Positions 18,801 through 41,186 are shown, counted from the first letter of the stretch. The stretch is 64,000 nucleotides of DNA from Ostrea edulis (GCF_947568905.1 NC_079166.1:9300001-9364000), one strand, 5' to 3'. Notes: a model not told the origin generated them from the letters alone. Numbers and translations: made by a program.

Positions 18801-20555
18801 GTGACTCTGAAATACGTTCCGGTTGAAGCACTGCTGTTTTTTGTTGTTGTTGTTTTTTTTTTTTGTGTTACTAGTAGGGTCGTAGCTTCGTTAGGCTTGA
18901 GTAGACACGTACCTTTTCATATTTGTCAATACACTTTGTCTCATAGTTTTTGCACAAAATGATATTCATATTTCTGATTTATTATTTAAATTTATCATTT
19001 ATATTTCTGATAAATCTCTCAGACATTTTCTTTTTACAATATAATATTTACATTTACGGAATCTTTTCTCTTATATTTCTTTTGAAATTGACATTGCTTT
19101 CATCTGCGACAATGAATGTGTGACCGTTGGACCGGGCAAACCATGGCAGTGTTGTTCAAGTGATAATCACATTTAGTAAAATACAGTAAATTAGAAATAG
19201 AATATTTATATCATACTAATATGACTGGAAAAGGTCCAATGAGGCTTACAACATGTTAACTTTAGAGTCTTGCCTTCGGCCCCTCCAAACTTCGATCGCT
19301 ATAATACCGCTTATATATTTTTTTTTATATAACTTAATGGTGATCATGATAGAAAAAAACATTCGACTTAATATTTTAAAGATATTGAAAAGTTGTGCAA
19401 TATTTTATATCTGTTGCAATTAATTTGATGCCCAGAGTACGGCAAATGAGTCCTAATATTTGAAATTTCTCGATTATGGTTCCCCCAAAACACCTCCCCT
19501 AGCGGGAGAGGGTCATCCTCTCCCACACACCCACACACCTCGTTCGGCGCTTCGGTTATTTCCTCGTCCTATACATATTGAAATACTCCTAGCTACGCCC
19601 CTACATCTAGTCTACCCGATACTATCGTAACAACTCTCCATATGTCCGTAAGTTTAGGATATAATATACTTTTCTTACCGGTTCCACCGAAACTGGTTGA
19701 GTGTTCCCAGATACTGGTTGGACAAATACCATCATCTTTATTCTGTGACTTCGTTCAAGACTGACATCAAGTATTTCAGATGATGCACTTTGTTTATTAA
19801 CTTTCGGTTTTCGTTCAATGAGTTAGGGAAATGAAGTAAAACATGGATTGGACTTCCCATTCTCTTCTTCCGGCTGTGCGTGTGTGTGTGTGGGGGGGGG
19901 GGGTCATTTGCTTAGGTTTTTGTTTTGGAGGAGCCATTGTTTGGGCTTTTTCTTCTTATCTACATAATATAACGCTGACTATCTATTGCAAACATGTGAC
20001 ATCCACTTATGAATTCCATTCATTCATTCTTTAATTAAGAAATAAATTTCATTTGGGGGAGGAGATACCCGAGGGTGTGAACTGCTATATTCATCAAGAT
20101 TCATACGCGTATTGTTCACGACTGTAACGCATTCATTAGGAAATGACTATCCTTACAATTTATAAGGATATCAGAGGCAAAAACATTGAAAATATAAATA
20201 TAAGGAAATAGCCATCCGTACCATTTTTATTTGTTTGTTTTACGTTTCGTCGAGAATTTTTCACGCTTACTGAGACGAGACTAACTGTAAATTGAAGTAC
20301 CACCGATTTAGACCTATGTGTAGAGCTCAGGGCCATAGCAATGAAAATGTAGTAAAAACGCCTGACGCGACACAAAACTTCCATTTTTAAGATCATATCC
20401 GAAAGACCCATGATTCGTGTGTGTATTCTAAATGCCGAATGCTTGGTAAAGGAGCAAACATCATGAAATATCATTTTTCAAATGGTATGTTTTATGTGAT
20501 CATTTTTATCACCTGGCTAATTTGTTTAGTCATGACTATATGTTGTACATACATG

Positions 20556-20888
20556 AGTAGTATAACGCCTCCCGATAGGGGGTTCAACTGAGTGCACTTT
20601 TTATGCAAATGAGGTCAAGCAAGGGTGTCTTTTGATTGGTCAAGCGGTGTCGGGGTCAACGGAGTGGTTCAATATCTAGGACGGAGTCAACCCCAGCAGG
20701 GGTTGTAGGACCCGGTGAATAGGTTGGCCTATGGCCGCTGGTCTAATTTTAGCATGCGGTACTTTCGCTTTGAGTTCCTGGAATGAGTTCCTGCTATTTT
20801 TCTGAAAATAAAATCCAGTGAAATCCTGTGTATTAAATCTAAAAGAATAACACAAGGTTTTAAGTTGACATGTTTATTAAAGAACAAT
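20556..20888 (+). repeat. Left terminal inverted repeat (333 bp)
   Basis: Reverse complement of 40374-40739 with about 3 substitutions, a 1-nt indel and a 34-bp insertion on the right. Confidence 0.95.
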
Positions 20889-20995
20889 TTAATTAATTTA
20901 GAGTGTTATTGACGTTGTGAAAAAACCTGCTTTTCTATGACGTCACAATAAGTATATAAACGCAATACACAATTCGCGTTATCACTTTCGACATC

Positions 20996-23900
20996 ATGTC
21001 AGACAAGTTACCTAGTGGACTTCCACGGAGTTATATTGAACAGCGATTGAGATTTTTGAATGATCAGCTGAACAGACAACGGCAGCGTGAATTACATCTC
21101 CGCAGAGAGAATCAACGGCGATTACAGTATTTACAGCGGGGAGGGGGGAAAAAGAAACTCATTTCGGATTATTACAAAATTCAACTGGAACGAGGACGTC
21201 AATCACGGAAATTTAAAGTCAAGGAAAATGTCTACAATGTTGCCTTCAAGCCTATTCCAGAGAAAGAAAATACAGCCTTCATTCGTCGCCTCTTCCGGGA
21301 TATGTTAAAAAATGTGAAACAGGAAATGCAGTGCAATCCCAATGATTATCTACGTTTAAATATTCGGCACCCGTCTCTGGATTCAGCTATTTGGTACGAA
21401 TTTACGCAGTCCAATCAGCTCAACGAGGACAAAATTCTGAACAAAATAGAATCCGTGCAGCAATCTAAAAAGGAATTCCTAATCACCGACGGGGCAGTGC
21501 AGATGGATTTTTTCCATGTCAAATATCCACAAGGCAGCGGGTGCACTAAGAAAAAAGATCTACACGTGGATAAGGAGAAATTCAAAACCTCTAAGAGAGC
21601 GATCGTTCGCATTCAAAATCCTGAGGATTCTCTCTGCTTGTCCCGGGCTATTGTGGTAGCACGTCTACACAGCCAGAAATCAAACGACCCGGCATGGGAA
21701 ACGAAATGGTTACGCATGAGAAAAGGGGATAAAGATTCTCTCGATCAGAAACGAGAAGCGATAGCCTTGATGGAACAAGCTGGGTGTGTTATGAACCAGC
21801 CGTGTGGGCCACGTGAATGGGAGCAATTACAGCACGCGCTCGCCCCGCAGTATCGATTGAAAATATTTCAATTCAAAACGAATACATCTCGTTTACGACT
21901 GGAACCTATTTACAAAGGACCGGGGCACGGGACTTGTTTGAATATCCTGCTGGATAACGAGCATCACGATGCCATTGTGTCTATGCCTGGAGTGACGGAA
22001 AACAAATACTATTGCGATTATTGCGATGTTGGCTACAGTCACATTGAAGATCATCGGACCGTCTGTCCTCATCGATGCTCATTTTGTTTAGCCGATACTC
22101 CCTGTATCCCGGACGGGACTCAGACGAATTGCCCTCATTGTAAGGGATTTTTCAGAAATGCAGCTTGTTACCAGACCCACTTGAAACCTTACAGCAGTAA
22201 TACAACGACCACGGTCTGCAGTTTAATGGGGCGCTGTAACCAGTGTCAGAAATGGATGTCCAAGCAATTATTAAAACGCCACGCGTGTGGGGGTCAAACC
22301 GAATGCCGCATCTGTCACAAAGTCGTCACCATGCCTCATCACTGCTTTGTACAGACGAAACCCAAACCTAAGAAAGAAAAAGAAGAAGAGGAGTTGAAAA
22401 TATACATTTATTACGATTTCGAATGCAGTCAGGAAAACGGTATTCACATCCCCAATTTATGCGTGGCAGAACGTGTGTGTCAACATTGCGACAGTGTGGA
22501 TATCGACAAGCCCTGTTCTCATTGTGAAGGATTCGGATCACAACGCCGTTTCCTATTTCAAGGACCCGACACGTTAAAACAGTTTATGGAATGGCTCTTA
22601 CAGAGCGAGACCGATGAGCAAGGCCATGTGGAACTCAAACACGATGAAGCCACCATCATTGCCCACAATTTCAAAGGATACGATGGGCAGTTTATTTTGA
22701 ATTACCTGGTGCACACGGCGTGTATCAAACCCACCGTCATCCTGAACGGCAGTAAAATCTTATCCATGCAAGTCTTGGGGTTGAGATTCATCGATTCTTA
22801 CAACTTTCTACCCTTTGCTCTTGCCAAGATGCCCTCTGCTTTCGGATTAACGGAATTGAAAAAAGGATATTTCCCGCACTTTTTCAACACGACAGAGAAC
22901 CAGCAGTATGTGGGTCCTTACCCGGCCGCTCATTTCTACAATCCTGACGATATGTCCACCGCCAATCGTGAAGCCTTCTATACTTGGTACCATCAACAAG
23001 AGGGCAAAGTCTTTGATTTCCAGAAAGAATTCTTAGCTTACTGCATCTCGGACGTGGATATTTTACGCCGGTGTTGTGCCCATTTCAAGTCCACCCTGTT
23101 TGATCTGGTGGAAGTAGACCCCTTTCAAGAATCCATCACGTTTGCCAGCACGGCTAATTTAGCCTACCGACGAGGATTCATGGTTGAAAATACCATCGCC
23201 ATCATTCCTAATATGGGCTACCGGCCAGCACGACGATATTCAGCTAAAGCTTGTCGATGGCTCGCCTGGCTAGAACATCAACATCACTGCATACGACATG
23301 TTAGAAATGGGGGCGAAGTCACGCTTGGACCCTATACAGTAGATGGGTATGATGAGGAATCCCGTATCGTGTACGAATTCTATGGCTGTTACTGGCACGG
23401 CTGTCCCACCTGTTTCCCGAATCTGTTGACTGACATGCATCCTCATCGTGTTCAGCATACGTATCAAGACCTCTACCTGGACACCTTAAAACGAGCCAGT
23501 GCTTTAGAAGACCAAGGCTATACAGTCGTGAGCATATGGGAACACGAGTTTGATCGTCAGACCCAGACCAATCCCGACTTACAGGAATTTTTACAAGGAG
23601 TCGATATACAAGATCCTTTGAATCCCCGTGACGCTTTGTACGGAGGCCGGACCAATGCTACACGACTGTATTGTGAGGAGGGTGACATGCGATACGTGGA
23701 TGTATGTTCCCTGTACCCGTACGTGTTGAAATACAAGCCATTTCCCGTCCAACATCCCCAAGTCATCACCAGCCATTTCACCGATGTCAGAGACTATTTC
23801 GGGCTCATTCGTTGTCGTGTCCTCCCACCCCGAGAGCTGTATCACCCCGTATTACCTTACAAGACCGGGGCCAAATTACTCTTTCCCTTATGCCGCACCT

Positions 23901-40283: not shown

Positions 40284-40352
40284 TTGAACTGTTATGCTTA
40301 TTGAACTGTTTTTATGCTTATTGAACTGTTTTTATGCTTATTGAACTGTTTT
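40284..40352 (+). repeat. 20-bp tandem repeat (ttgaactgtttttatgctta) x~3.5
   Basis: Visible between the zinc-knuckle stop and the right TIR. Confidence 0.9.
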
Positions 40353-40373
40353 GCATTGTTCTATGCTTGTACC

Positions 40374-40739
40374 ATTGTTCTTTAATAAACATGTCAACTT
40401 AAAACCTTGTGTTATTCATTAGATTTAATACACAGGATTTAATACACAGGAATACATAGAAATACACAGGATTTCACTGGATTTTATTTTCAGAAAAATA
40501 GCAGGAACTCATTCCAGGAACTCAAAGCGAAAGTACCGCATGCTAAAATTAAACCAGCGGCCATAGGCCAACCTATTCACCGGGTCCTACAACCCCTGCT
40601 GGGGTTGACCCCGTCCTAGATATTGAACCACTCCGTTGACCCCGACACCGCTTGACCAATCAAAAGACACCCTTGCTTGACCTCATTTGCATAAAAAGTG
40701 CACTCAGTTGAACCCCCTATCGGGAGGCGTTATACTACT
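40374..40739 (-). repeat. Right terminal inverted repeat (366 bp)
   Basis: Mirror of 20556-20888; ends ACTACT, followed by the TSD TACATG. Confidence 0.95.
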
Positions 40740-41186
40740 TACATGTATCATGTTATGAAGTCTGTGTTATGTAATCATCTTGTTTAGTTTCCTGATCACA
40801 AGTGAAGGACATGTATCTATTTTACACGCTATGTCATCAGTAATCATAACCAATGATTTTAGCTTATTCGAAGATATATCTTTATCCACCCTCATCAGCA
40901 GCCAATGAAATAATGATTAAGTGTCACGTGATCATGTGTCAAAGTGAAAGGAAGCATTGTTTTTATGTGATTATAGAGGAAAATTTTCATTGGCTCCCGT
41001 TTCATGTGTCTTCCAATAGAATAGACGATTATCGTAACGATTTAGGCGGGTATATTTGGATGAACTTTCGATGTACAAATAAAATCGTAAGTGACACTAT
41101 GTAAAATTTTCTTAAGGGAATTTCCCAGGTCAGGGGTCGCGGTTTAGCCTAATAGGCAGACCAGTTCGATCCGGATTGATCAGACT

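What the first reader, a model, noticed from the sequence alone, without database searches (positions are those of the whole stretch)
20550..40745. Young, near-intact 20-kb Polinton with perfect TSD and full virion module
Seen: TIRs differ at only a few positions, the TSD is perfect, and PolB, ATPase, penton, hexon and protease are all uninterrupted. Established: these are the genes needed to form adenovirus-like particles. Inference: a recent insertion of a lineage probably still active as a virus in a bivalve host.
Basis: partly seen in the sequence, partly recalled or inferred. Interest (0 to 1): 0.7.

Follow-up and report, generated by a model that had tools for sequence, protein, structure and literature searches.

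The report
Oyster Polinton with broken integrase
This is a fairly recently inserted virus-like DNA element (a Polinton) in an oyster-like genome: its replication and capsid genes are whole, its integrase is damaged, and it carries an unusually rich set of genes that look built to stop the host cell from dying or shutting down protein synthesis.

Summary
The element is real: 20,184 bp (20556-40739), perfect 6-bp TSD, (AGT)2//(ACT)2 ends, and TIRs with 2 mismatches in the outer 268 bp. PolB, ATPase, putative penton, double-jelly-roll capsid protein and protease are open. This copy is therefore probably not autonomous. Close relatives exist (integrase 96-97%, capsid 89%), and the best named integrase hits are from oysters. 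Polintons are common in bivalves, so the element itself is ordinary. The cargo is more notable: four tandem paralogous mini Bcl-2-fold genes without a membrane tail (moderate fold evidence, one modelled), a 72-aa DP71L/GADD34-like PP1-eIF2alpha adaptor, an IAP, a macrodomain-like gene and a RING protein. Single Bcl-2 and IAP genes are known from adintoviruses; my searches found no polinton paper with the eIF2alpha adaptor. Activity as a virus is untested. Verdict: known kind, unusual anti-defence cargo.

The parts
20550..20555 (.). Left target-site duplication TACATG
20556..20888 (+). Left TIR (333 bp), starts AGTAGT; outer 268 bp differ from the right TIR at 2 positions
20996..24955 (+). Protein-primed PolB, 1319 aa: N-terminal region (terminal protein, inferred), vOTU-like Cys213-region/His motifs, Exo I-III, Vsr-like insert, Pol A-C
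   Evidence: PF03175 E 7e-57; motifs; DUF559 E 0.001, below cut-off, for the insert
24992..25519 (+). IAP: one BIR plus RING, 175 aa
   Evidence: PF00653 E 1e-15, PF13920 E 6e-12; PDB IAP hits
25560..26198 (+). A32/FtsK-type packaging ATPase, 212 aa
   Evidence: PF04665 E 2e-6; Walker A and B
26248..27132 (+). Basic ORF with KRGG motif and C-terminal C2H2-like finger; possibly PZ/GasderminX-like (label recalled, not tested)
   Evidence: weak similarity to 27173 ORF, E 0.043
27173..27502 (+). 109-aa ORF, possible paralogue of 26248; completeness not checked
27499..28272 (+). 257-aa ORF of unknown function
   Evidence: no family above cut-off
28254..29157 (+). rve integrase, BROKEN: DDE core intact to about 29012, about 62 codons missing, chromodomain (29014-29154) in another frame
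29154..29411 (+). 85-aa ORF with a hydrophobic, membrane-like segment
   Evidence: KD 2.4
29404..29859 (+). 151-aa ORF of unknown function, TATA at -41
29975..30970 (+). Putative penton (minor capsid protein), 331 aa
   Evidence: position between integrase and PW/MCP/protease as in PMC8097293; Atlas feature score 0.98 to viral clusters, recognition value low; no PDB sequence hit
30974..31117 (+). 47-aa basic ORF with QxGxG motifs, similar in style to the start of 31145; putative core peptide (inference)
31145..31846 (+). Basic 233-aa ORF in the PW position with three QxGxG motifs; putative protease-processed core protein (inference)
31926..33329 (+). [quoted passage not shown]
   Evidence: closest relative 466 aa at 89%; model pLDDT 92.3; Foldseek PBCV-1 Vp54 E 2e-17, Sputnik E 7e-17
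33339..33836 (+). Adenain-like maturation protease, 165 aa
   Evidence: PF00770 E 1.7e-4, above cut-off; His, Asp, Gln and Cys motifs
34035..34334 (-). 99-aa acidic/basic ORF in a cassette whose flanking DNA resembles that of the RING gene
34518..34919 (+). Cys-rich 133-aa ORF, TATA at -38
34910..35407 (+). Macrodomain-like ORF, 165 aa
   Evidence: PDB 2fg1/2afc E 0.003, 5e3b macrodomain E 0.21; no Pfam hit
35557..36345 (-). Pro-rich protein with C-terminal RING-like finger, 262 aa
   Evidence: PF13639 E 0.001, below cut-off
36909..37127 (-). 72-aa DP71L/PPP1R15 (GADD34/CReP)-like PP1-eIF2alpha adaptor: KRVTF, WxxxAxDRxRFxxRI, LDPIL
   Evidence: PF10488 above cut-off; best PDB hit ASFV DP71L E 3e-5, then PPP1R15B; motifs; two relatives at 73-75%
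37091..37396 (-). Bcl-2-fold-like paralogue 4 (101 aa)
   Evidence: paralogy
37383..37730 (-). Bcl-2-fold-like paralogue 3 (115 aa), TATA at -43
37759..38112 (-). Bcl-2-fold-like paralogue 2 (117 aa), TATA at -42
38150..38482 (-). Bcl-2-fold-like paralogue 1 (110 aa), the one modelled; TATA at -38
   Evidence: PF00452 E 0.0066, below cut-off; model pLDDT 84.6; fold searches; one relative at 91%
38622..39128 (+). 168-aa ORF, weak match to CRESS-virus Rep domain; unresolved
   Evidence: PF02407 E 0.009, below cut-off; no PDB support
39449..40273 (+). Two-CCHC zinc-knuckle protein, 274 aa, TATA at -59
   Evidence: PF00098 E 3e-15
40374..40739 (-). Right TIR (366 bp), ends ACTACT
40740..40745 (.). 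Right target-site duplication TACATG

Best explanation
This is an integrated Polinton/Maverick provirus (family Eupolintoviridae, formerly Adintoviridae) in an oyster-like bivalve, from a lineage that is active or was recently active. Shown here: the ends, the TSD, the gene set, the capsid fold and the integrase lesion. Inferred from the family: the linear genome is copied from its (AGT)2 ends by the protein-primed PolB, packaged by the ATPase into a double-jelly-roll capsid with a penton, matured by the protease, and inserted by the rve integrase with a 6-bp duplication. Genes are transcribed by host RNA polymerase II from TATA promoters. A host-modulation block most likely keeps the cell alive and translating during the productive phase: an IAP and four tail-less Bcl-2-fold proteins against cell death or innate signalling, a DP71L-like adaptor that brings PP1 to phosphorylated eIF2alpha, and a macrodomain-like protein against ADP-ribosylation. 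All these functions are inferred from homology. This particular copy has lost part of the integrase C-terminal region and its in-frame chromodomain, so it is probably unable to integrate again without a helper copy, although its replication and capsid genes look sound.
For: Ends, TSD and TIRs. Core genes and motifs. Capsid fold. Integrase lesion in 98 of 120 relatives compared. No excess loss of conserved residues: capsid 2 of 35 columns (105 of 123 others have as many or more), integrase core 1 of 97 (48 of 59). Near-identical relatives, including P0026 at 96% with an unbroken C-terminal region and P0001 at 97% with a different frame change. TATAWA 38-73 nt upstream of 12 of 25 ORF starts against 22 of 691 other ATGs (p about 4e-12), including 3 of 4 Bcl-2-like genes. 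Bcl-2 family in 10 of the top 12 and 19 of 50 rows of the unbiased fold search; top viral hit 'Bcl2, Branchiostoma lancelet adintovirus'. DP71L best PDB hit, with the RVxF and LSAVL-equivalent residues that DP71L needs (PMC5346070, passages).
Against: No expression, virion or episome data. Bcl-2 fold scores are moderate (Z 6.9 in the unbiased search and 8.5 in the second look, rmsd about 4 A, 9-19% identity), below the tool's caution level for helical proteins; Foldseek E is 0.75; only 1 of 4 paralogues was modelled; no PDB sequence hit for the family profile. Macrodomain, RING and Rep-like assignments are weak. The penton fold was not tested. At 3 to 4 of 7 integrase differences from P0001 the window residue is the rarer one, which hints at some drift after insertion. 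A bioRxiv survey (10.1101/2025.04.19.649669, passages) finds that most bivalve viral regions are not near-identical recent copies.
Confidence: 0.65

Rival explanations
1. The lineage no longer makes particles and spreads only inside the genome as a self-synthesising transposon. This copy is a recent but inert fossil, and the capsid and anti-defence genes are whole only because little time has passed.
For: Broken integrase. A second relative, P0001, also has a frame change in its integrase tail. Vertebrate Maverick particles had not been observed and 96% of copies were defective (PMC8097293, abstract passage and Discussion part 1).
Against: A capsid protein 89% identical and of the same length exists elsewhere. 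The capsid keeps its conserved residues. A large anti-death and anti-shut-off cargo with its own promoters fits a productive infection better than transposition alone.
Confidence: 0.2
2. The integrase deletion is an assembly error, and the copy is fully intact.
For: The window holds 200 N of scaffold gaps, so the assembly is not finished; reads were not available.
Against: The junction is clean and single-copy, with no tandem repeat at it, and the neighbouring genes show no such errors.
Confidence: 0.06
3. The four helical paralogues are not apoptosis inhibitors. They are either Bcl-2-fold scaffolds that block innate signalling (as recalled for poxvirus A46/A52/B14-type proteins) or an unrelated helical bundle.
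For: No C-terminal membrane anchor (maximum KD over 19 residues 0.7-1.1). The model aligns from about helix 2 onward of Bcl-xL (residues about 82-192), so helix 1 seems absent. The BH1-like motif is degenerate. Z scores are moderate.
Against: The best fold matches are BH3-binding anti-apoptotic proteins (F1L, Bcl-xL, CNP058, A179L). The Pfam Bcl-2 hit and the adintovirus Bcl2 hit point the same way.
Confidence: 0.35
4. The host keeps the element as a defence or domesticated module, for example interfering with another DNA virus, in the way integrated virophages do.
For: It sits within a cluster of host IBR-type ubiquitin-ligase genes and lost integrase while keeping replication and capsid genes.
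Against: One integrase lesion in a young copy is expected by chance. The cargo suppresses host defences rather than helping them. No evidence of fixation.
Confidence: 0.07

Closest known systems
Adintoviruses / Eupolintoviridae (Starrett et al. 2021, PMC8502044; renamed per PMC12451622)
   Same: OTU-type PolB, rve integrase, FtsK-type ATPase, hexon, penton, adenain, ITRs, animal host. Bcl2 and IAP homologues are already reported there, and a Pinctada oyster contig is among the maps.
   Different: Four tandem Bcl-2-fold paralogues and a DP71L-like adaptor were not found in the parts read or in the supplement as held (0 hits for GADD34, PP1 and Macro; supplement cut when stored). Alpha or Beta class not determined.
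Vertebrate Mavericks (Barreat & Katzourakis 2021, PMC8097293)
   Same: (AGT)2//(ACT)2 ends, 6-bp TSD, size and TIR length within the reported ranges, module order int-penton-PW-MCP-protease and PolB-ATPase-(PM/PZ).
   Different: Both modules lie on one strand (reported only for X. tropicalis). All accessory genes but the IAP lie on one side. The integrase is broken, so it is not 'intact' by their definition.
Polinton PolBs with a Vsr endonuclease insert (Jeong et al., 10.1101/2023.08.22.554363)
   Same: Vsr-like insert in PolB, reported for marine nematode and mollusc pPolB2.
   Different: Only a weak DUF559 match here; no tree was built, so pPolB1/pPolB2 class is not assigned.
ASFV DP71L / PPP1R15A-B (GADD34, CReP) / HSV ICP34.5
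   Same: Length (72 vs 71 aa), RVxF, W-x3-A-x-D-R-x-R-F-x2-R-I and an L-x3-L matching LSAVL.
   Different: Carried by a 20-kb integrating Polinton of a mollusc rather than a large DNA virus of mammals; binding untested.
Viral Bcl-2 proteins (poxvirus F1L/M11L, ASFV A179L, iridovirus GIV66)
   Same: Helical arrangement.
   Different: Only 101-117 aa, no membrane tail, four diverged tandem copies (25-39% identity in local alignments).

Membership tests
Polinton/Maverick (Eupolintoviridae) | Terminal inverted repeats | tested here: met
Polinton/Maverick (Eupolintoviridae) | 6-bp target-site duplication | tested here: met
Polinton/Maverick (Eupolintoviridae) | Simple-repeat end motif (AGT)2//(ACT)2 | tested here: met
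   motif in PMC8097293
Polinton/Maverick (Eupolintoviridae) | Protein-primed PolB with exonuclease and polymerase motifs | tested here: met
Polinton/Maverick (Eupolintoviridae) | vOTU domain in the PolB N-terminal part | tested here: inconclusive
   Cys- and His-containing motifs at the expected places (patterns recalled); no Pfam hit; not folded
Polinton/Maverick (Eupolintoviridae) | Retrovirus-like (rve) integrase gene present | tested here: met
   PF00665 E 1e-11; D, D, E motifs; gene present but disrupted
Polinton/Maverick (Eupolintoviridae) | A32/FtsK packaging ATPase | tested here: met
Polinton/Maverick (Eupolintoviridae) | [quoted passage not shown] | tested here: met
Polinton/Maverick (Eupolintoviridae) | Single-jelly-roll penton | tested here: inconclusive
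   synteny and Atlas features; no sequence hit; not folded
Polinton/Maverick (Eupolintoviridae) | Adenain-like protease | tested here: met
Polinton/Maverick (Eupolintoviridae) | Alpha vs Beta PolB and virion-module class | not tested
   no reference set or tree available
Polinton/Maverick (Eupolintoviridae) | Particles or free linear genomes | not testable with these tools
   needs tissue or read data
'Intact' Maverick (PMC8097293 definition) | All core ORFs uninterrupted, plus TIRs and TSD | tested here: not met
   integrase deletion and frame change
PPP1R15/DP71L adaptors | RVxF PP1-docking motif | tested here: met
   KRVTF at residue 10
PPP1R15/DP71L adaptors | Downstream conserved W...DRxRFxxRI segment and LSAVL-like leucines | tested here: met
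PPP1R15/DP71L adaptors | Binds PP1 and dephosphorylates eIF2alpha | not testable with these tools
   bench assay
Viral Bcl-2 proteins | Bcl-2 helical fold | tested here: inconclusive
   consistent top ranking but Z 6.9-8.5, rmsd about 4 A; one paralogue modelled
Viral Bcl-2 proteins | C-terminal membrane anchor (common, not universal) | tested here: not met
Viral Bcl-2 proteins | BH3-peptide binding and inhibition of apoptosis | not testable with these tools
   bench assay

The most novel reading that the evidence does not exclude
An oyster Polinton lineage is a true infectious virus that packs into 20 kb a counter-defence kit otherwise seen in large DNA viruses: an expanded family of four minimal Bcl-2-fold proteins, each with its own promoter or coupled start, an IAP, a macrodomain, a RING protein and a working PP1-eIF2alpha adaptor. 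That would be the first eIF2alpha-phosphatase recruiter from a polinton, and indirect evidence that molluscs use eIF2alpha shut-off and intrinsic apoptosis against these elements.
Probability: 0.35. Interest if true: 0.7.

Novelty: new variant of a known kind. Interest (0 to 1): 0.45.

Why it matters
Whether animal Polintons are real viruses or only transposons with left-over capsid genes is still open. Genes that block apoptosis and translational shut-off make most sense in a productive infection, so this cargo is indirect support for a viral phase. It also offers small proteins that can be assayed (72-117 aa) and a defined locus with close relatives in a farmed animal group. The correction matters too: 'young and near-intact' is not the same as autonomous, and this copy's integrase is damaged. 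The element as such is ordinary, since Polinton-class regions are abundant in bivalve genomes (10.1101/2025.04.19.649669, passages).

Tried and rejected
Exact look-up of 10 window proteins: 0 of 10 in the collection. A look-up of the clusters of 7 relatives could not be made, so their sources, and whether they are transcripts, stayed unchecked. Capsid protein against PDB by sequence: no meaningful hit, single sequence or profile; the fold search was needed. Putative penton: no hit in Pfam, PDB sequences or phage records, and only a spurious NCBIfam hit. Atlas search of Bcl-2-like paralogue 1: no usable hit; family profile against PDB sequences: nothing significant. ORF 38622 as a CRESS Rep domain: only a sub-threshold Pfam hit, no PDB support; left unresolved. 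LxCxE 'oncoid' motifs: none in 12 accessory or core ORFs scanned, and one chance-like match inside PolB. Empty-site search: neither 1-kb flank matches a paralogous site elsewhere in the window across the junction, and there is no second copy of the element in the window. Dating in years was rejected: no rate for this host was measured, and the TIRs need not have been identical at insertion. No complex prediction was run. Literature negatives: polinton + GADD34, 0 papers; polinton + eIF2 + protein phosphatase 1, 0 papers; polinton + bcl, 14 papers, 11 listed and seen as listings only except Starrett et al.. A 2024 viral Bcl-2 review has 0 mentions of polinton or adintovirus. The library lacks most subscription papers. 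The Starrett supplement was cut when stored and its protein files were not seen; bioRxiv supplements were closed. These may hold annotations that bear on novelty.

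
Full report
Observation. The element runs from 20556 to 40739 (20,184 bp). It is flanked by an identical hexamer, TACATG, and begins AGTAGT and ends ACTACT. That end motif is the commonest one in vertebrate Mavericks (PMC8097293, passage). The TIRs differ at 2 positions in the outer 268 bp and extend, with 33 bp of indels in short tandem repeats, to 333 and 366 bp. The element is 45% GC against about 35.5% in the flanks and about 85% coding. No second copy lies in the window.

Core genes. PolB (1319 aa, PF03175 E 7e-57), ATPase (PF04665) and protease (PF00770) are open and keep their catalytic motifs (the patterns were recalled). PolB also has Cys and His motifs where a vOTU domain is described (PMC11071308, passages) and a weak Vsr-like insert, a feature reported for some mollusc Polinton PolBs (10.1101/2023.08.22.554363, passages and section 8). 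The 467-aa ORF has no Pfam or PDB sequence match, but 9094 relatives at E up to 0.001, the closest 466 aa at 89%. An alignment of the window protein with 123 of the 150 listed hits (fragments and fused forms left out) gave a model of pLDDT 92.3. It matches PBCV-1 Vp54, Sputnik and iridovirus capsid proteins at E about 1e-16 to 1e-17, so the double-jelly-roll call is right. The penton is assigned by position and by an Atlas feature match with a low recognition value; its fold was not tested.

The ORF at 28254 stops after 256 codons, while relatives have a median length of 359 aa (97 of 120 at 340 aa or more). Of 120 relatives, 98 match in two pieces, the core to about 29012 and the tail from 29014 in another frame, with a median of 61.7 codons absent between them. 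The tail is a chromodomain (PF00385 E 9e-10). The D, D and E motifs remain. The missing stretch is well conserved in relatives, and C-terminal domains are needed for integration by retroviral integrases (recalled). The copy therefore fails the 'intact' definition of PMC8097293 and is probably non-autonomous for integration. Whether the loss came after insertion, or a helper inserted an already defective genome, cannot be told from one copy.

Age, host and relatives. TIR divergence is 0.75% (95% interval 0.09-2.7%), if the TIRs were identical at insertion. Conserved columns are not eroded: the capsid deviates at 2 of 35 (105 of 123 others as many or more), and the integrase core at 1 of 97 (48 of 59 others; the alignment used 59 of the 120 hits). 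The best named integrase relatives come from Ostrea edulis, Saccostrea and Crassostrea virginica at 75-85%, so an oyster-like bivalve host is well supported. Unnamed records are closer still: P0001 (97%, with a different frame change in its tail) and P0026 (96%, unbroken C-terminal region). The family thus has several near-identical members, and at least one has a whole integrase tail. Whether these records are transcripts stayed unchecked. Polinton-class regions are abundant in bivalves, and most are not near-identical recent copies (10.1101/2025.04.19.649669, passages).

Accessory genes. Behind PolB lies an IAP (BIR plus RING). Right of the protease lie a macrodomain-like ORF (weak), a RING-like protein (weak), a zinc-knuckle protein and a minus-strand cluster of five genes. 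Four of these (37091-38482; 101-117 aa) are paralogues: all 6 pairs score above 500 of 500 shuffles, at 25-39% identity in local alignments. Paralogue 1 has a sub-threshold Pfam Bcl-2 match. Its model (pLDDT 84.6, 5 sequences) ranks Bcl-2-family structures in 10 of the top 12 and 19 of 50 rows of the unbiased search (best F1L, Z 6.9, rmsd 4.0, 100 aligned), and in 50 of 50 rows of the second look at Foldseek's candidates (best Z 8.5). Its top viral hit is the Bcl2 of a lancelet adintovirus, though only at E 0.75. These scores are below the tool's caution level for helical proteins, so the fold is likely, not proven. None of the four has a membrane tail. The fifth gene (36909-37127, 72 aa) passes the Pfam cut-off for the PP1-binding family and hits ASFV DP71L best (E 3e-5), then PPP1R15B. 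It has KRVTF, the W...DRxRFxxRI segment and LDPIL opposite LSAVL; DP71L needs the RVxF and LSAVL residues to dephosphorylate eIF2alpha (PMC5346070, passages). Two relatives at 73-75% exist, and one shares the upstream overlap with the neighbouring frame. TATAWA lies 38-73 nt upstream of 12 of 25 ORF starts against 22 of 691 other ATGs, including three of the four Bcl-2-like genes, which supports these being real RNA polymerase II genes.

Mechanism. Shown: anatomy, capsid fold, integrase lesion, paralogy and motifs. Inferred from the family (PMC4028283 and PMC11071308, passages; PMC8097293 Discussion part 1): protein-primed replication from the repeated ends, ATPase-driven packaging, protease maturation (QxGxG motifs in the basic ORFs as candidate sites; my inference), and integration with a 6-bp duplication. 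Inferred from homology: the cargo delays host cell death and reverses eIF2alpha-mediated shut-off during a productive phase. Confidence in the whole picture is 0.65. The main rivals are an intragenomic-only lineage (0.2), an assembly error at the integrase (0.06) and host domestication (0.07). Separately, the Bcl-2-fold proteins may act on innate signalling rather than apoptosis, or be unrelated (0.35).

Comparison and novelty. Membership of Polinton/Maverick (Eupolintoviridae, renamed from Adintoviridae per PMC12451622, passages) is met on every feature that could be tested firmly; penton and vOTU are inconclusive, and the genus-level class was not tested. Starrett et al. (PMC8502044; parts 1-3 of 6 read; supplement term searches) already report Bcl2 and IAP homologues and map a Pinctada contig. 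I found no paper joining polinton with GADD34 or with eIF2 and protein phosphatase 1. Term searches in four further papers gave nothing on this cargo (10.1101/2023.10.06.561300; 10.1101/2024.03.25.586562; PMC11209288; 10.64898/2026.10.13.758929). The library is incomplete and the Starrett protein files were not seen. Verdict: a known kind of element, correctly spotted, less intact than claimed, with an accessory set that appears to be a new variant. Interest 0.45.

Noticed in passing
window 1217-1876(-), 9961-11461(-), 45793-46850(+), 53372-54424(-), 5320-5640(+): Array of host IBR-domain (RBR-type ubiquitin ligase-like) genes, with a weak ubiquitin-like match in one upstream piece; the Polinton sits between members of this cluster.
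   Followed up: partly
window 33869-34427(-) and 35442-36473(-): Two minus-strand genes with unrelated-looking proteins share similar upstream (93% over 29 nt) and downstream (75% over 100 nt) DNA, suggesting a duplicated expression cassette.
   Followed up: no
window 37359-37419 and 37692-37753: 62-nt repeat (89%) spanning the starts of Bcl-2-like paralogues 3 and 4: a recent trace of tandem duplication or conversion.
   Followed up: no
window 38622-39128(+): Weak match to a CRESS-virus Rep domain without an obvious HUH motif; may be a captured, inactive origin-binding domain.
   Followed up: partly
window 27173-27502(+): Ends soon after a QKG motif, and its weakly similar neighbour 26248 continues much further; it may be short by nature or truncated, not checked against relatives.
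   Followed up: partly
window about 4400-5430, 7755-9190, 15100-16340, 47510-48170: Several decayed copies of a reverse-transcriptase element (RVT_1 weak; Penelope-like by recall) on both strands.
   Followed up: no
window 62388-63372(-): Tc1/mariner-like DDE_3 transposase fragments.
   Followed up: no
window 57500-61200 and 51470-51780: Tandem repeat of about 167 bp with a 200-N gap region nearby.
   Followed up: no
window 2800-3590: Long imperfect TAC/ACT trinucleotide tract.
   Followed up: no
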